From positions 1 through 30,643 of the forward strand of contig CAZWLF010000001.1 in assembly GCA_964634805.1 (NCBI GenBank): a DNA stretch of 30,643 nt. The letters run 5' to 3'. This document shows positions 24,447 to 29,114 of the stretch, in pieces. Origin of the DNA: an uncultured Gammaproteobacteria bacterium. GTDB lineage: Bacteria; Patescibacteriota; Microgenomatia; UBA12405; JAHJSD01. Both the position numbers and the translations under genes were made by a program. The notes beneath the pieces were generated by a model. It was not told the DNA's origin. It saw only the letters and a program-made list of their open reading frames with translations, and made no database searches. Position 1 is the stretch's first letter; every line of letters begins with the position of its first letter.

Positions 24447-24677
24447 ATGAGCAAATTATCCTGCGGGACTGGGCTACAGAAAAATATCATAGATAAGGAG
24501 GTGTTCAAAAGAGAGCTTGCTCTGTGTCATAAACTGTCTCGGGAGAATGGCGGTAAATGTTGTTGGGGAGTCTGCGAAAGTTGTGGGGTGATACCGTTTC
24601 TTTACAAATTACACAAGGGTGTGTTGCTTGAGGACCCTGCTGAAATAAAAAAGGCAAAAAATAAAGTAGTGAAATAA
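24447..24677 (+). CDS. Small Cys-rich hypothetical protein
   Basis: Strong SD AGGAGG; C-x10-CC-x3-C-x2-C cluster. Confidence 0.7.
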   Translation: MSKLSCGTGLQKNIIDKEVFKRELALCHKLSRENGGKCCWGVCESCGVIPFLYKLHKGVLLEDPAEIKKAKNKVVK

Positions 24678-24789: not shown

Positions 24790-24819
24790 TTGAATTTAAG
24801 CTCCAACCTCCGTTATAAT
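24790..24819 (+). promoter_or_regulatory. Promoter of the T-box-aspS transcript
   Basis: TTGAAT-18-TATAAT. Confidence 0.75.
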
Positions 24820-24832
24820 ATCAATCGAGAAA

Positions 24833-25036
24833 AACAACGATCCTGTTTGTGACCCAGGGGAGTTGAAGGAAGAAACCCCGCATTCGGCGGGAAAGTAGAG
24901 CCTTCCGGGCGCGCCCGTAACAGCGTTAAACGAGTTCCGACGTTACGTCGGAAGAAGCAGGGTGGCACCGCGAACTCACCTAAATCCTCGCCCCTGTCAA
25001 TCAGTTTGTTCTGGTTGATATGGGCGAGGGTTTTTT
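24833..25036 (+). promoter_or_regulatory. T-box riboswitch (ultrashort Stem I, Asp specifier GAC) with intrinsic terminator
   Basis: K-turn Stem I with GAC at 24851-24853, Stem II with AGUA/GAA S-turn, Stem IIA/B, Stem III, T-box AGCAGGGUGGCACCGCG (24956-24972), and terminator CCUCGCCC/GGGCGAGG followed by U6. Confidence 0.92.
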
Positions 25037-25077
25037 ATTGGGCCAAAATTTGTTAAAGTTTAACTAAGGAGTAAAAA

Positions 25078-26883
25078 ATGAAACGAACACTGATAAAAGA
25101 CACCGTTTCACGTGTTGGTGGAAAAGTGGCAATCTCCGGCTGGGTAAATAGTGTCCGGAGTCATGGCAAATTAGCTTTTGCTGATATCCGGGATAGGTCT
25201 GGAATGATTCAGGTAGTCGGGGGAAAAGAAATTGCCAAACTGAATCCGGAATTTGTAGTCGGAATTGAAGGTTTAGTTAAGAAAAGAGAAGAAAAATATT
25301 TTAACCCGAAGATAATTACCGGAGAAATCGAGCTCGAGGTTGAGAAGTTAGCCATTTTAGCGGAAGCAAAAGACCTTCCTTTTGATATTCACCAACCCAG
25401 TTTGGATGTTTCTTTGCCTATTTTGTTAGACTATCGGGCCGCTTCATTAAGAAACAAGAAAATCGCTGACATTTTCCGGGTTCAGTCCACTATTGTCAAG
25501 GCTTTCAGGAAGCACATGGTGGACAATGGCTTTACCGAATTCCAAGCACCGACAATTGTTGCCACCGCCACTGAAGGCGGCTCGCAGGTTTTCCCGATTG
25601 ATTATTTTGGCTACAAAGCCTATTTAGCCCAAAGCCCTCAGTTTTATAAACAGATCATGGTTTCTGTCTTTGAACGGGTTTTCACTCTGGCCCATGCTTA
25701 TCGGGCAGAGCCGAGTGTTACTACCAGACACATGACTGAATATGTTGGTATGGATGTTGAGATGGGTTTTATCGACAGCTGGTTGGACGTAGTTGAAACC
25801 GCAGATAAATTAGTCAAAGCGATTTTTGCCGAAATAGAAAAAGAACATCCAGATGTTTTAGCAAATTTTGGCACAACTATCCCTAAAACAGTAGAGGAAA
25901 CGCCGAGAGTAAAATTGTCCGAAGCCCAAGAAATAATTTTCAAAAGGACAGGCCGGGATATTAGGGGGGAGCCGGACATGGACCCGGAAGGAGAAAGGGA
26001 AATTTGCCGCTGGGCGGAAGAAGAACACGGCAGTGAGTTAGTTTTCATCAGCCATTATCCAACCAAGAAAAGACCTTGGTATACCTACCAGGATTTGGAA
26101 AACCCGGAAGAAACTTTGAGTTTCGATCTGATCGGCCGAGGAGTGGAGTGGATCACCGGCGGCCAAAGAATCAATGATTTTAATGTTCTTTCCGCTAATA
26201 TTAAAAAAATGGGCGCCAATCCGGAAGATTTTGAAATTCCATATTTACAGGCGTTTCGTTATGGCATGCCCCCCGAGGGCGGTTTTTGCTTAGGGCTGGA
26301 GAGAGTCACTCAAAATATTTTGGGCTTGTCCAATATCAGGGAAGCAACTCTTTACCCCAGGGATTTAGAGCGGGTCGATGCCAGACTTTCGACCATCGGC
26401 CAAAAACCCGGTGAAGAAACCAAAAGCCTTTTCGCCGAATTGGTTGACCTTCTTGCGGATAACAATATTAATTACCAGCTTTGTAATCACAAACCGGTTT
26501 ATACCAGCCAGGAAGCGGCTGAAGCCAGGGGAACCAAATTGGAGCAAGGGGCCAAGGCTCTGATCATGTTTGCTGACAAAAAGCCGGTTTTAATTGTCAT
26601 TTCCGCCGCTTATGAAGTTAATCTTGAAAAGCTGAAAAAATTGCTGAAAGTTAAAAAGCTAAAAATGGCCAGCGCTTCCGAGGTGGAGCAAATATCCGGA
26701 ACTAAAATCGGCGCTGTTCCGCCCTTCGGCAGTTTAATCGGGCTGAAAACATGGGTTGATAAAAGTTTGGCGGAGAATAAACAAATCGCTTTTAACGCCG
26801 GATTGCATACTAAGTCAATTATCATCAGTTATGACGATTGGCTTAAACTGGTCGAGCCGGAAAAAGCGGACTTTTCTTCCTAA
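25078..26883 (+). CDS. aspS: Archaeal-type aspartate-tRNA ligase (probably non-discriminating) fused to a C-terminal YbaK/ProXp domain
   Basis: OB-fold, YLAQSPQFYKQ, AYRAE..RH..EY, GGQRI, GMPP.GG..LGLER and YPRD. The last ~155 aa carry QGAKAL, GAVPPFG and IAFNAG. Confidence 0.93.
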   Translation: MKRTLIKDTVSRVGGKVAISGWVNSVRSHGKLAFADIRDRSGMIQVVGGKEIAKLNPEFVVGIEGLVKKREEKYFNPKIITGEIELEVEKLAILAEAKDLPFDIHQPSLDVSLPILLDYRAASLRNKKIADIFRVQSTIVKAFRKHMVDNGFTEFQAPTIVATATEGGSQVFPIDYFGYKAYLAQSPQFYKQIMVSVFERVFTLAHAYRAEPSVTTRHMTEYVGMDVEMGFIDSWLDVVETADKLVKAIFAEIEKEHPDVLANFGTTIPKTVEETPRVKLSEAQEIIFKRTGRDIRGEPDMDPEGEREICRWAEEEHGSELVFISHYPTKKRPWYTYQDLENPEETLSFDLIGRGVEWITGGQRINDFNVLSANIKKMGANPEDFEIPYLQAFRYGMPPEGGFCLGLERVTQNILGLSNIREATLYPRDLERVDARLSTIGQKPGEETKSLFAELVDLLADNNINYQLCNHKPVYTSQEAAEARGTKLEQGAKALIMFADKKPVLIVISAAYEVNLEKLKKLLKVKKLKMASASEVEQISGTKIGAVPPFGSLIGLKTWVDKSLAENKQIAFNAGLHTKSIIISYDDWLKLVEPEKADFSS

Positions 26884-26905: not shown

Positions 26906-27787
26906 ATGATTTTTAAAAAAACCGTCTGGCCTTGGGCTTTGCTTTTAATTCTTTTTGGCACGCTTTTATTATTGAAAAGCTTTTTGTTTTGGAGGAAGTA
27001 CAATTTGGTTTTTAAAGAAGAGCCCTTGCCCTTGCTCGAAGAGCCGGTTTCTTTTCCGCAGATTAACGCCAAGTCGGCGATAGTAATTGATGCCGACTCG
27101 GGAACGGTTTTATTCGAAAAAGAGCCTCGTCTTAAGCTTAATCCCGCTTCGATTACCAAAATGGTTACGGCAATAACTGCCCTGGAAACCTATCCGGTTG
27201 ACGAGGTGGTCACTGTTATCAACCCTTATCCTGTCGGTAAAGTTATGGGGTTGGAATCGGGCGAGAAAATCACGGTTAAAAACTTAATTTATGGTCTTCT
27301 GGTTCATTCTGCTAACGATGCCGCTTTTGTCCTGGCCGGTCAGACTGAGGAAAAAATTCAAAAGTTTATCGTCAGAATGAACCAGGTTGCTTCTCAGGAG
27401 AATTTAAACGACACTCATTTTGTTAACTTTGACGGGGAAGAAGACGAAGACCACTATTCTACTGTTTTTGATTTGGCTAATCTAACCAGATGGGCCTTAA
27501 GAAATAATATTTTTAGCGACGCAGTCCGGTTGGATAAGATTACTGTTACTGACACCGCTGGCGCGATTACTCATGATTTGGAGACTACCAATGAGCTTTT
27601 AGGCATGGAAGAGATTAAAGGGGTCAAAACCGGCTGGACTCCTTTGTCCGGTGAGTGTTTTGTCGGTTTGGTAGACTTCAAAGACCGCCGTTTGATTACG
27701 GTAATTTTGGGCAGTGAAGACCGTTTTGGTGAAACTAAAAAGCTGGTTGAATGGGCAAAGGAAAACGTTTTCTGGAAAGAGCTTTAG
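26906..27787 (+). CDS. D-alanyl-D-alanine carboxypeptidase (peptidase S11)
   Basis: PASITK (SxxK), HSAND (SxN), KTG and an N-terminal TM. Confidence 0.93.
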   Translation: MIFKKTVWPWALLLILFGTLLLLKSFLFWRKYNLVFKEEPLPLLEEPVSFPQINAKSAIVIDADSGTVLFEKEPRLKLNPASITKMVTAITALETYPVDEVVTVINPYPVGKVMGLESGEKITVKNLIYGLLVHSANDAAFVLAGQTEEKIQKFIVRMNQVASQENLNDTHFVNFDGEEDEDHYSTVFDLANLTRWALRNNIFSDAVRLDKITVTDTAGAITHDLETTNELLGMEEIKGVKTGWTPLSGECFVGLVDFKDRRLITVILGSEDRFGETKKLVEWAKENVFWKEL

Positions 27788-28019: not shown

Positions 28020-29078
28020 TTATTCCAACCACTCGGAAGAAACTGCGGAAACATAGCCGTAAAAATCATCGTCCCCTTGAAAAACAACCACCGGCTGTAA
28101 AAATTGGTCAGCAAAATAGGGGTCGAAATAGGCGAAATAAACTCTTCTTATCTTAACGCTAACGTCTTTTTGTCCGCCGCCGTAGGAGGCAAGATAGTAA
28201 TTGCCTGCTTTGAGTTCTTCCCAAGCCTGGTCAACCGTTTTGATCGGGTAACGGCCGTATTTTTCCGGATCGCTTTCGAAGTGGAGGTATTTTGCCTCTA
28301 CCACTTGTTCGTTTTGAATTCTAAACCCGGAAATCAATAGCGAAACCAAACTTTTGTCTGCTCTCGGAGAGACTACAGGATATTTGTCATCCACTTTTTT
28401 TCTAAAAACATCTGCTCTGACAAAATCGGCTTCGGAAGCGGCTAAGGCGTTAATTAGCTGGTCGCTGCTTATCTTCCAATAACTGAGCCGGTACTCACCG
28501 TCTTTAAGCTCATCGCTTAACCGTGAAGCCTTGCCCAGAAAATTTCTGGCAATGCTGACTGTGTCCGCCTCTTTGGGAAGCGAAGGCGGGTTGATCAAAG
28601 TTTGGTCTTCTAAATAAGCGTAAGTGTATTCAAAATTTCCGGTTAAGACATCAACTGTCAGTGAAGTTCTTTGTCCTGGGTTTTCAAAAAGGAAAATATC
28701 CTCCTCTATTTTTTGTGGATCCTCTTTAAACCCCAACGCCCTGGCTAATTCGGTTGCCTTTTCCAAAGAAAGAAATTTGCCCCTTTCCTGAGGGACAAAA
28801 TAAACTTTTTCGGTAAAAGGGATATCTTTGGGCAGTTCCCCGTCAGCGGTTTCCAGCTGGAAACTTTTTGGTTTTAGAATTGCTTCTTTTGGGAAGTTTA
28901 TTCTTGGCAGTTTGCCGAAGGCGGTATCCGGCGGCGGCGGCGGGATCGGGTGAATCATTCTCCAGTAAACAGTGAAAAGATTGATACTTATTTTCGAAAC
29001 AAAAAAAAGAACCAAGAGCGTGGCGCTAATTTTAATAATCTTCCGGGTATAGTAGGAAACAACCGTCAGTTGGGACAT
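28020..29078 (-). CDS. Single-TM membrane-anchored hypothetical protein
   Basis: MSQLTVVSYYTRK, a TM, PPPPP linker and a large soluble domain. The ORF opens at 29114; ATG 29078 or 29081 is the more plausible start. Confidence 0.8.
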   Translation of the reverse strand: MSQLTVVSYYTRKIIKISATLLVLFFVSKISINLFTVYWRMIHPIPPPPPDTAFGKLPRINFPKEAILKPKSFQLETADGELPKDIPFTEKVYFVPQERGKFLSLEKATELARALGFKEDPQKIEEDIFLFENPGQRTSLTVDVLTGNFEYTYAYLEDQTLINPPSLPKEADTVSIARNFLGKASRLSDELKDGEYRLSYWKISSDQLINALAASEADFVRADVFRKKVDDKYPVVSPRADKSLVSLLISGFRIQNEQVVEAKYLHFESDPEKYGRYPIKTVDQAWEELKAGNYYLASYGGGQKDVSVKIRRVYFAYFDPYFADQFLQPVVVFQGDDDFYGYVSAVSSEWLE

Positions 29079-29081
29079 CAT

Positions 29082-29114
29082 TTTAGTATACAATTTAGGT
29101 GTGTTAAAATTCAA
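29082..29114. promoter_or_regulatory. Overlapping divergent promoters
   Basis: Minus strand TTGAAT-18-TATACT. Plus strand TGn-TAAAAT at 29102-29110. Confidence 0.55.

What the first reader, a model, noticed from the sequence alone, without database searches (positions are those of the whole stretch)
26400..26883. AspRS carries a fused YeaK/ProXp-y-like editing domain
Seen: after the complete class IIb core (ending YPRDLER) the frame continues with about 155 aa containing RGTKLEQGAKAL, ASASEVEQISG..GAVPPFG and IAFNAG..KSII. Established: these motifs resemble the INS/YbaK superfamily, most closely E. coli YeaK (ProXp-y), a trans-editing deacylase of Ser/Thr-tRNAs; AspRS normally has no editing domain. 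Inference: cis or tethered trans editing on AspRS, or a way for a reduced genome to co-express a general deacylase under T-box control.
Basis: partly seen in the sequence, partly recalled or inferred. Interest (0 to 1): 0.65.

Follow-up and report, generated by a model that had tools for sequence, protein, structure and literature searches.

The report
AspRS fused to YbaK-type tRNA deacylase
An aspartyl-tRNA synthetase of an ultra-small groundwater bacterium carries a proofreading (aminoacyl-tRNA deacylase) domain at its C-terminus, which matters because AspRS is not among the synthetases known to have an editing domain and the papers searched do not describe this fusion.

Summary
ORF 25078-26883 (601 aa) is a complete archaeal-type AspRS, named non-discriminating by NCBIfam. 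A roughly 20-residue low-confidence linker joins it to a 150-aa INS/YbaK-superfamily domain (Pfam tRNA_edit, E 2e-29). The Lys and GxxxP motifs that define the superfamily are invariant in 101 fused homologues.

The fusion is not an assembly artefact. Contigs from four independent runs span the junction, and at least 100 sequence clusters and a single-cell genome carry it.

The closest characterised relative is E. coli YeaK/ProXp-ST1 (33% identity). Membership of that orthologous group is unresolved.

New here: the same domain is fused to three AspRS architectures (archaeal-type, bacterial-type with GAD, bacterial-type without GAD). It also occurs as a separate gene translationally coupled to aspS, and in DPANN archaea, once between aspS and asnS. 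It has been lost cleanly at least four times and is sometimes fused to the downstream D-Ala-D-Ala carboxypeptidase instead.

An Asp-type T-box-like leader precedes the gene.

Best reading: an AspRS-associated post-transfer editing module whose substrate is unknown. Main rival: a general Ser/Thr-tRNA trans-editing factor fused to a neighbour by adjacency. No paper found describes the fusion.

The parts
24790..24819 (+). promoter-like site TTGAAT-18 nt-TATAAT directly upstream of the leader
   Evidence: 10 of 12 matches. The number of such sites in the region is no higher than in shuffles, so only the position is suggestive.
24828..24998 (+). T-box-like leader with a very short stem I. The terminal loop UUUGUGACC contains GAC (Asp codon). 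The T-box core is AGGGUGGCACCGCG, where UGGC would pair with a G73 discriminator base.
   Evidence: RF00230 44.9 bits, E 1.7e-8, below the gathering score of 93. Sequence, fold. The same core motif lies upstream of aspS in L010, L018, L032 and L036.
24982..25036 (+). long terminator hairpin followed by a U-run (the attenuator of the leader)
   Evidence: whole leader MFE -83 kcal/mol, z -3.5 against shuffles
25066..25071 (+). Shine-Dalgarno AAGGAG, 6 nt before the ATG
25078..26883 (+). aspS-edit fusion ORF, 601 aa plus TAA
25126..25356 (+). OB-fold anticodon-binding domain (aa 17-93)
   Evidence: PF01336, E 2e-13
25420..26364 (+). class IIb catalytic core (aa 115-429), archaeal-type AspRS without GAD insertion
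   Evidence: PF00152, E 2e-70. (NF003483 aspartate--tRNA(Asn) ligase, 459 bits against cutoff 353). (best PDB match is T. thermophilus non-discriminating AspRS2, 1n9w/3kfu, E 6e-88). (Foldseek 3nel/1b8a, TM 0.86).
26374..26433 (+). linker (aa 433-452), poorly conserved and of variable length
   Evidence: pLDDT 58-72; residues 446-448 below 50. (39% mean identity against 63% for the core; 21-36 residues between R432 and L459 across homologues).
26434..26880 (+). INS/YbaK-superfamily aminoacyl-tRNA deacylase domain (aa 453-601), YeaK-like
26554..26556 (+). codon of K493, which aligns with the YbaK K46-type lysine
   Evidence: Aligned with the K of the YbaK 'FKTLL' motif. At least 98% conserved in 101 fusions. 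Codon AAG.
26710..26724 (+). GxxxP loop (G545-A-V-P-P549)
26906..27787 (+). downstream D-Ala-D-Ala carboxypeptidase (Peptidase_S11), 22 nt after the stop. It is a conserved neighbour and in some lineages the fusion partner of the edit domain instead of AspRS.

Best explanation
The gene encodes a two-module enzyme. The N-terminal 432 residues are a complete archaeal-type AspRS, predicted to be non-discriminating. A flexible linker of about 20 residues ties it to a catalytically intact INS/YbaK-fold aminoacyl-tRNA deacylase.

The most likely role is as an AspRS-associated post-transfer editing module. It would hydrolyse a wrongly esterified tRNA released from, or still bound to, the AspRS dimer. 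By homology to YeaK the acyl group is probably small and polar (Ser/Thr-like), on tRNAAsp or tRNAAsn. The deacylase is held at one copy per synthetase.

An Asp-specific T-box-like attenuator raises expression of both activities when tRNAAsp is uncharged. That is when Asp is scarce and mischarging by non-cognate amino acids should be relatively most frequent.

Shown here: the architecture, the fold, conservation of the superfamily motifs, authenticity of the fusion, and recurrent genomic linkage to AspRS.

Inferred: deacylase activity, the substrate, action on AspRS products, and the starvation logic.
For: (1) The domain is a bona fide, conserved INS/YbaK member:
- Pfam E 2e-29.
- AF2 pLDDT 95 with Foldseek TM 0.77-0.86 to 3op6, YbaK, ProXp-x and ProX.
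- K493, G545...P549, H471, R484, FNAG 572-575 and S580 are at least 98% conserved in 101 fusions, although the domain as a whole is only 48% identical on average.

(2) The fusion is real.

(3) Linkage is specifically to AspRS and recurs:
- Among 80 GTDB loci, 10 are fused to archaeal-type AspRS, 11 to GAD-less bacterial-type AspRS and 5 to bacterial-type AspRS with GAD. Four more are adjacent split genes.
- Every fusion to a synthetase that was examined scores as AspRS; none is AsnRS, LysRS or any other aaRS.
- Split forms overlap aspS by ATGA or TAATG, typical of translational coupling.

(4) Linkage also appears outside the Microgenomates synteny, in DPANN archaea:
- Woesearchaeota carry fusions next to Translin.
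- A Nanoarchaeota MAG has aspS-edit-asnS.

(5) A separate, well-conserved stand-alone paralogue family exists in the same phyla and sits in unrelated gene contexts. It is the more natural general factor.

(6) T-box-like leader with a GAC loop, a UGGC core and a terminator.
Against: - No activity or substrate is known, and AspRS has no documented need for editing.
- The tether is dispensable. The domain has been deleted cleanly in at least four clades nested inside the fused clade.
- It exists as a separate gene.
- In two 50%-identity clusters it is fused to the downstream membrane-anchored Peptidase_S11, with aspS inverted.
- The AF2 model gives no confident interdomain geometry (pTM 0.72).
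- The domain trees are unresolved. A single fusion followed by core replacement cannot be told apart from several independent fusions.
- Part of the AspRS linkage within Microgenomates could simply be inherited synteny.
Confidence: 0.5

Rival explanations
1. The domain is a general ProXp-ST1-like trans-editing factor. It clears Ser/Thr (or other) mischarged tRNAs made by other synthetases such as AlaRS, ThrRS, ValRS, IleRS or LysRS. Its gene happens to lie between aspS and dac in a conserved housekeeping cluster. In streamlined genomes with overlapping stop and start codons it has repeatedly become fused to whichever neighbour lost a stop codon. The fusion gives co-expression and nothing more.
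For: - The closest characterised relative, YeaK, has broad tRNA specificity (PMC11295145; similarity).
- The same domain is fused to the downstream Peptidase_S11 in L094/L095.
- Split genes with 1-4 nt overlaps exist.
- At least four clean losses show AspRS works without it.
- A stand-alone Nanoarchaeota/Woesearchaeota homologue lies two genes from AlaRS.
Against: - The aaRS partner is always AspRS, across three non-orthologous AspRS architectures and in DPANN contexts that lack the dac synteny.
- A distinct stand-alone paralogue family, more conserved and not linked to any aaRS, exists in the same phyla and could fill the general role.
Confidence: 0.3
2. The domain is a right-amino-acid, wrong-tRNA editor. 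It hydrolyses Asp-tRNAAsn made by a non-discriminating AspRS. This would make the enzyme functionally discriminating in organisms that use AsnRS, or would act as a safety valve when GatCAB transamidation stalls.
For: - The core scores as aspartate--tRNA(Asn) ligase, and its best PDB match is the T. thermophilus transamidosome AspRS2.
- In Nanoarchaeota L049 the deacylase gene lies between an archaeal-type AspRS and a bona fide AsnRS.
Against: - No INS-family enzyme is known to select against a cognate-like Asp moiety on the basis of tRNA identity.
- Hydrolysis of the obligatory Asp-tRNAAsn intermediate would be futile if GatCAB is used.
- The domain is also fused to bacterial-type AspRSs of unknown discrimination status.
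- Presence of GatCAB or AsnRS in these genomes could not be checked with the tools.
- Only one locus shows the asnS adjacency.
Confidence: 0.08
3. The domain is a deacylase for D-Asp-tRNAAsp or for tRNA charged with an aspartate analogue (for example a beta-hydroxylated or sulfinate analogue). It would protect scavenging symbionts that import amino acids of uncontrolled composition.
For: - The linkage to AspRS.
- Strictly conserved polar residues T476, S477, N573 and S580 in the AspRS-linked clade. T476/S477 are absent from YeaK.
- From general knowledge, AspRS can charge D-Asp.
Against: - No member of the INS superfamily is known to be D-specific.
- T476/S477 are shared with the unlinked paralogue clade, so they are not specific to AspRS-linked forms.
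- There is no direct evidence.
Confidence: 0.06
4. The domain is a non-catalytic appendage. It would serve as a tRNA-binding or tRNA-retention domain, or as a protein-interaction module, like YbaK-fold domains found in signalling proteins.
For: Foldseek also finds the YbaK fold inside non-editing proteins (3mem, SadB 9qzk).
Against: The Lys, the GxxxP loop and other pocket residues are at least 98% conserved over a family that has diverged to 38-76% identity in this domain. That pattern is expected for an enzyme, not for a scaffold.
Confidence: 0.05
5. The fusion is an assembly or gene-calling artefact.
For: None was found for the window. Some database 'stand-alone' entries are in fact miscalled pieces of fused genes, which shows that annotation in this family is unreliable.
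Against: - Four independent runs give contigs across the junction with no indel.
- At least 100 clusters at 90% identity, contigs up to 1.2 Mb and a single-cell genome carry the fusion.
- The reading frame is continuous and the linker is conserved in length.
Confidence: 0.01

Closest known systems
E. coli YeaK (ProXp-ST1, formerly ProXp-y), a free-standing Ser/Thr-tRNA deacylase of the INS superfamily
   Same: - 33% identity over 151 aa, BLAST E 3e-27.
- Shared motifs: H, RGT..QGAKAL, G..PPF, FNAG..KS.
- Same fold family.
   Different: - YeaK is a single-domain protein, not fused or adjacent to AspRS.
- It lacks the conserved T476/S477 pair and has a divergent PPFSFHP loop.
- Orthology is not established: the trees are unresolved and 3op6 is equally close.
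Legionella pneumophila lpg1207 (PDB 3op6), an uncharacterised YbaK-family protein
   Same: - Best solved-structure match by sequence (E 2.8e-20) and by fold (E 1.6e-14, TM 0.77/0.85).
- Shares GAMPPFGNL and FNAG.
   Different: - Free-standing, with unknown function.
- It has LAKTV instead of GAKAL around the lysine.
ProRS INS cis-editing domain, and the ProXp-ala-ProRS fusions of some protists
   Same: An INS-superfamily deacylase in the same polypeptide as a class II synthetase. The Lys and GxxxP motifs are conserved.
   Different: - In bacterial ProRS the INS domain is inserted between motifs 2 and 3. In protists ProXp-ala is N-terminal.
- Here the domain is C-terminal on a flexible linker and the partner is AspRS.
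- Sequence similarity to INS and ProXp-ala is weak (E 1e-3 to 3e-2).
Archaeal-type non-discriminating AspRS (T. thermophilus AspRS2, PDB 1n9w/3kfu; T. kodakarensis AspRS 1b8a/3nel)
   Same: The core aligns end to end (E 6e-88 and about 1e-81; 38-39% identity to 3nel/1b8a; TM 0.86) and ends at the same ...FPRD..R motif.
   Different: The solved enzymes stop there, at 422-438 aa. None has a C-terminal deacylase domain (no hit covers residues beyond about 440).
Actinobacterial-type T-box leaders with a truncated stem I
   Same: A short stem I with the candidate specifier in a terminal loop, the T-box core sequence, and a downstream regulatory hairpin. The comparison with the actinobacterial class comes from my own knowledge, not from a test.
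   Different: - Here the expression platform is an intrinsic terminator (transcription attenuation).
- The Rfam score is below the gathering threshold.
- The specifier assignment (GAC) is by inspection only.

Membership tests
INS/YbaK superfamily (Pfam PF04073 tRNA_edit) | matches the family HMM above the curated threshold | tested here: met
   102.6 bits against cutoff 25.5, E 2e-29, covering profile positions 1-123 of 123
INS/YbaK superfamily (Pfam PF04073 tRNA_edit) | YbaK alpha/beta fold | tested here: met
   AF2 domain model pLDDT 95.2. Foldseek TM 0.77-0.86 to 3op6, 1dbx, 2cx5, 1wdv and 2dxa; ProRS INS domains are also hit.
INS/YbaK superfamily (Pfam PF04073 tRNA_edit) | conserved lysine (YbaK K46 / INS K279 position) | tested here: met
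   K493 aligns with the K of 'FKTLL' in H. influenzae YbaK. It is at least 98% conserved in 101 fusions and invariant in 25 homologues. The K46 role is cited from PMC3532385.
INS/YbaK superfamily (Pfam PF04073 tRNA_edit) | GxxxP loop | tested here: met
   G545-A-V-P-P549; G545 and P549 are at least 98% conserved. That this loop defines the family is from my own knowledge.
INS/YbaK superfamily (Pfam PF04073 tRNA_edit) | hydrolyses aminoacyl-tRNA | not testable with these tools
   needs an enzyme assay
ProXp-ST1 (YeaK) family | orthology to E. coli YeaK (closest family in a supported phylogeny) | tested here: inconclusive
   YeaK is the best characterised hit (87 bits). However 3op6 is as close (76 bits) while YeaK and 3op6 score only 25 bits against each other. 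NJ trees place YeaK near, but not inside, the AspRS-linked group, with 0/100 bootstraps for the exact clade tested. Reference sequences for ProXp-ST2, -7, -8 and -9 were not available.
ProXp-ST1 (YeaK) family | free-standing single-domain protein | tested here: not met
   Fused to AspRS. The review states that INS-superfamily members other than INS are single-domain.
ProXp-ST1 (YeaK) family | deacylates Ser- and Thr-tRNAs with broad tRNA specificity | not testable with these tools
   biochemical property (PMC11295145)
Archaeal-type non-discriminating AspRS | matches the equivalog HMMs for aspartate--tRNA(Asn) ligase | tested here: inconclusive
   NF003483 scores 459.3 bits against cutoff 353, which is met. 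TIGR00458 scores 338.6 bits against cutoff 368.4, which is not met.
Archaeal-type non-discriminating AspRS | OB anticodon domain plus class IIb core without a GAD insertion, about 430 aa | tested here: met
Archaeal-type non-discriminating AspRS | charges both tRNAAsp and tRNAAsn | not testable with these tools
   The residue aligned with T. kodakarensis W26 (a discrimination determinant, from memory) is Asn, and His in T. thermophilus ND-AspRS2. This is only suggestive.
Synthetase with a cis-editing domain | synthetic and hydrolytic sites in one polypeptide | tested here: met
Synthetase with a cis-editing domain | the 3' end of the tRNA bound to the synthetase reaches the editing site | not testable with these tools
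   AF2 gives no confident interdomain arrangement (pTM 0.72, linker pLDDT 58-72).
T-box leader (RF00230) | reaches Rfam's gathering score | tested here: not met
   44.9 bits against 93, though E 1.7e-8. The deficit comes from stem I, where 9 nt stand in place of about 76.
T-box leader (RF00230) | T-box core sequence with UGGN, plus a terminator | tested here: met
   AGGGUGGCACCGCG at about 24958-24971 and a long hairpin plus U-run at 24982-25036
T-box leader (RF00230) | specifier codon matching the regulated synthetase | tested here: inconclusive
   GAC lies in the stem I terminal loop UUUGUGACC. Assigned by inspection, with no covariation test.

The most novel reading that the evidence does not exclude
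AspRS is an eighth synthetase family with a resident editing activity. In ultra-small CPR bacteria and DPANN archaea this activity would solve a problem peculiar to the Asp/Asn system. Either it removes Asp from tRNAAsn, so that tRNA discrimination is achieved by editing rather than by anticodon recognition, or it removes an aspartate analogue or D-Asp that scavenging symbionts cannot exclude. That would be a new substrate class for the INS superfamily and a new logic for keeping Asp and Asn codons apart.
Probability: 0.15. Interest if true: 0.85.

Novelty: new variant of a known kind. Interest (0 to 1): 0.66.

Why it matters
Editing domains are currently described for seven synthetase families, and AspRS is not one of them (PMC11295145). 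INS-superfamily deacylases are described as single-domain proteins apart from ProRS-linked forms.

A conserved AspRS-deacylase fusion has three implications:
- AspRS in these organisms may make an error worth correcting, which no one has looked for.
- It gives a natural gene-fusion ('Rosetta stone') link that could assign a physiological partner to an otherwise poorly understood branch of the YbaK/YeaK family.
- It adds a translation-fidelity feature shared by CPR bacteria and DPANN archaea, two radiations of reduced symbionts that depend on imported amino acids.

It is directly testable with recombinant protein. The practical lesson for annotation is that these genes are currently named plain 'aspartate--tRNA(Asn) ligase', or are split into a pseudo-AspRS plus an 'aminoacyl-tRNA deacylase'.

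Tried and rejected
- **Rfam at gathering threshold.** It found nothing in the window. The T-box appears only in E-value mode.
- **tRNA genes.** ARAGORN found none in the window, so acceptor-stem features of tRNAAsp/Asn could not be examined.
- **NJ phylogenies of the 150-aa domain**. They are too poorly resolved to assign a ProXp subfamily or to count fusion events: the exact clade tested was recovered in 0 of 100 bootstrap replicates. No ML tree program was available.
- **Primary ProXp papers.** The Liu 2015 PNAS and Vargas-Rodriguez 2013 JBC papers are not held. Pocket residues that define ProXp-ST1 and reference sequences for ProXp-ST2/7/8/9 could therefore not be used.
- **Co-occurrence of the fused form and the stand-alone paralogue in one genome.** Cluster members gave NCBI accessions PIY69549.1 (fused) and PIY70312.1 (stand-alone), 763 apart, which is only suggestive. 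The contig look-up returned a different assembly.
- **Literature searches for an AspRS-YbaK fusion**. They returned only ProRS-linked cases. The Leishmania paper concerns ProRS.
- **T-box core motif in L087.** It is a chance hit inside an opposite-strand ORF.
- **Assembly-artefact hypothesis.** Rejected.
- **'Stand-alone' database entries.** P0125, P0131, P0123 and P0130 turned out to be miscalled C-terminal pieces of fused genes, so counts of stand-alone forms among short contigs are inflated.
- **Foldseek on the full-length model.** It found no solved structure covering both modules.
Full report
**1. What is in the sequence**

The window is a typical Patescibacteria (CPR) housekeeping region. 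Its genes are RecA, RNase Y, an ABC transporter, MiaA, ComM, SecDF, the CCA-adding enzyme, RecJ, an HD-domain nucleotidase, aspS, a D-Ala-D-Ala carboxypeptidase and gltX. G+C content is about 43%.

The finding lies in one uninterrupted ORF, 25078..26883 (+), of 601 aa. Pfam resolves three domains:
- an OB anticodon-binding domain (aa 17-93);
- a class II D/K/N core (aa 115-429, E 2e-70);
- tRNA_edit PF04073 (aa 471-591, E 2e-29, full-length match to the profile).

NCBIfam names the first 433 residues aspartate--tRNA(Asn) ligase (NF003483, 459 bits, cutoff 353). The older TIGR00458 model falls just short of its cutoff. The best solved relatives of the core are T. thermophilus non-discriminating AspRS2 (1n9w/3kfu, E 6e-88) and T. 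kodakarensis AspRS. Both end where this core ends.

The tail beyond YPRDLER is 169 aa rather than about 155.

**2. Is the fusion real?**

Yes.
- Assembler contigs from four separate groundwater or aquifer sequencing runs cover the core/domain junction without indels or joints.
- Of the 120 best homologues in a 5.8-billion-protein collection, 101 have the same three-domain architecture. Identities run from 86% down to 51%, on contigs up to 1.2 Mb, from NCBI, JGI, ENA and Logan. Where named they are Woese-, Shapiro-, Roizman-, Ames- and Pacebacteria.
- A single-cell genome also has a fused form.

**3. The domain itself**

AlphaFold2 with a 108-sequence alignment gives two well-folded modules (mean pLDDT 91). 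The linker at aa 433-452 has low confidence (pLDDT 58-72). The pTM of 0.72 means the relative orientation is not defined.

The domain alone models at pLDDT 95. By Foldseek it matches lpg1207 (3op6), YbaK, ProXp-x (2cx5), APE2540, ProX and the INS domains of ProRS, with TM 0.7-0.86.

Conservation across the 101 fused homologues:
- The domain averages 48% identity to the window, against 63% for the core and 39% for the linker.
- H471, T476, S477, R484, G491, K493, A494, G545, P549, G551, F572-N-A-G575 and S580 are each at least 98% conserved.
- K493 aligns with the critical lysine of YbaK (role cited).
- G545...P549 is the GxxxP loop.

This is the pattern of an enzyme under purifying selection, not of a decaying appendage or a scaffold.

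**4. Which ProXp family?**

Among characterised proteins E. coli YeaK (ProXp-ST1) is clearly the nearest, at 33% identity over 151 aa and E 3e-27. YbaK and ProXp-x score about 37 bits, ProRS INS about 22 bits and ProXp-ala 18 bits.

The uncharacterised 3op6 is equally close, at 76 bits. YeaK and 3op6 barely recognise each other (E 1.5e-4). The window's domain is therefore a slowly evolving, central member of a large family: 1018 representatives at E<=1e-10.

NJ trees are unresolved, and reference sequences for ProXp-ST2/7/8/9 were not obtainable. 'YeaK-like' is fair. 'Is a ProXp-ST1' is not shown.

**5. Comparative genomics (the main new result)**

(a) *The domain is fused to three different AspRS architectures.* They are the archaeal-type (about 600 aa), the bacterial-type with GAD (about 745-760 aa; P0160, L017, L027, L030, L040) and a bacterial-type lacking GAD (about 630-650 aa; L005, L006, L015, L020, L023 and others). 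Among 80 species-representative genome loci recovered with the domain:
- 26 are fused (10, 5 and 11 for the three architectures in that order);
- 4 are adjacent split genes;
- 48 are unlinked stand-alone genes, mostly of lower identity (34-43%), including enterobacterial YeaK orthologues.

(b) *Split forms exist.* In L008 and L010, aspS and the deacylase gene overlap by ATGA or TAATG. L008 is nested within the fused clade of the AspRS-core tree and L010 is basal.

(c) *The domain can be lost.* Domain-less AspRSs form at least six clades nested among fused ones. The four inspected show aspS followed directly by the peptidase gene with no remnant.

(d) *It can fuse to the other neighbour.* In L094/L095 aspS is inverted. 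The domain is instead fused, through a transmembrane helix, to the downstream Peptidase_S11.

(e) *The linkage crosses domains of life.* Woesearchaeota MAGs carry bacterial-type AspRS+GAD+edit next to a Translin gene. A Nanoarchaeota MAG has aspS - edit - asnS.

(f) *A separate stand-alone paralogue family exists.* It comprises 1391 clusters, is widespread in Patescibacteria including Roizmanbacteria, and sits in unrelated contexts. It shares the TS, QGAKA, PPFG and FNAG motifs.

(g) *Several database 'stand-alone deacylases' are miscalled C-termini of fused genes*.

**6. Regulation**

Upstream of the gene lie, in order:
- a promoter-like TTGAAT-18-TATAAT;
- a T-box-like leader (24828-24998; E 1.7e-8, but below Rfam's gathering score because stem I is very short);
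- a strong terminator hairpin with a U-run (24982-25036);
- an AAGGAG ribosome-binding site.

The stem I terminal loop holds GAC (Asp). The T-box UGGC would pair with a G73 discriminator. Both are consistent with tRNAAsp, but both were assigned by inspection. A similar leader precedes aspS in L010, and the core motif precedes aspS in L018, L032 and L036. The peptidase gene follows 22 nt after the stop and is probably co-transcribed.

**7. Interpretation**

The deacylase is almost certainly active. It is linked to AspRS far more often than chance adjacency would explain: three non-orthologous cores, two domains of life, and never another synthetase.

I therefore favour an AspRS-associated post-transfer editing role (confidence about 0.5). 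The linker would allow the domain to reach a CCA end on the dimer or just released from it. T-box control would couple editing capacity to Asp starvation.

The covalent tether is evidently optional, as the split forms, the peptidase fusion and the repeated losses show. The main rival (about 0.3) is a general YeaK-like Ser/Thr-tRNA trans-editing factor that merely fuses with neighbours in compact genomes.

More novel readings are not excluded but have thin support. They are an Asp-tRNAAsn-specific editor, suggested by the ND-type core and the aspS-edit-asnS cluster, and a D-Asp or analogue deacylase.

**8. Novelty**

A 2024 review lists seven synthetase families with editing domains. It states that INS-superfamily members other than INS are single-domain, with ProXp-ala-ProRS and the plant CTD as the only elaborations. 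Full-text searches found no description of an AspRS-linked form.

The proteins are in public databases but annotated only as AspRS. I rate this a new variant of a known kind: a known fold and chemistry with a new synthetase partner, new lineages and an unknown substrate.

Noticed in passing
window 24790-25036: T-box-like leader with an unusually short stem I. The terminal loop UUUGUGACC carries GAC. There is a promoter-like site and a strong terminator. It scores only 44.9 bits against Rfam's gathering score of 93, so standard annotation would miss it. Related leaders or core motifs lie upstream of aspS in L010, L018, L032 and L036.
   Followed up: partly
L005 2609-4501; L006 2525-4435; about 11 further loci in L014-L048: Bacterial-type AspRS lacking the GAD insertion domain (about 470-aa core) fused to the same deacylase domain. 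In the NCBI records only the last 144-166 aa are called as a gene ('aminoacyl-tRNA deacylase').
   Followed up: partly
L094 3501-4961; L095 1986-3446 (P0187; also P0221): The deacylase domain is fused through a transmembrane helix to the D-Ala-D-Ala carboxypeptidase (Peptidase_S11), with aspS inverted next to it. This is seen in two independent samples and two 50%-identity clusters.
   Followed up: partly
L049 1710-5038: A Nanoarchaeota MAG has archaeal-type aspS, the stand-alone deacylase gene (4-nt gap) and a bona fide asnS in a row.
   Followed up: partly
L017 1174-3462; L030 1216-3456; L040 1189-3456: Woesearchaeota (DPANN) MAGs carry a bacterial-type AspRS+GAD+deacylase fusion next to a Translin-family gene. 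This suggests transfer of the fused gene between CPR bacteria and DPANN archaea.
   Followed up: partly
L002 877-879: In-frame TAA at a conserved Glu position (NG[YF]E) of a bacterial-type AspRS-deacylase gene, on a 4x-coverage contig. It is either a sequencing error or a pseudogene.
   Followed up: partly
P0297-P0416; L051, L057, L058, L070, L096-L100: A separate, well-conserved stand-alone paralogue of the deacylase (about 162 aa, 1391 clusters) is widespread in Patescibacteria, in contexts unrelated to any synthetase. NCBI accessions PIY69549.1 (fused) and PIY70312.1 (stand-alone) are close enough to suggest one genome holds both.
   Followed up: partly
P0149, P0153, P0152; P0291: Proteins made of two or three tandem tRNA_edit domains, and a tRNA_edit + GNAT acetyltransferase fusion, appear among the closest representatives of the domain.
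   Followed up: no
window 28020-29114 (-) and 24447-24677 (+): A conserved syntenic protein of about 350 aa with an N-terminal hydrophobic segment always lies between the peptidase gene and gltX and has no Pfam match. A 76-aa Cys-rich ORF just upstream of the T-box leader also has no match.
   Followed up: no
L014, L018, L020, L028, L029, L031, L032, L034, L037, L038: MAG record titles (Bathyarchaeia, Gammaproteobacteria, Pseudomonadales, Methanosarcinales) sit on contigs with Microgenomates-type genes and synteny (aspS-edit followed by Peptidase_S11). The taxonomic labels look unreliable.
   Followed up: no
L009 3501-7468 (= L041): In a Nanoarchaeota/Woesearchaeota MAG a stand-alone homologue (52% identical to the window's domain) lies two genes upstream of AlaRS.
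   Followed up: no
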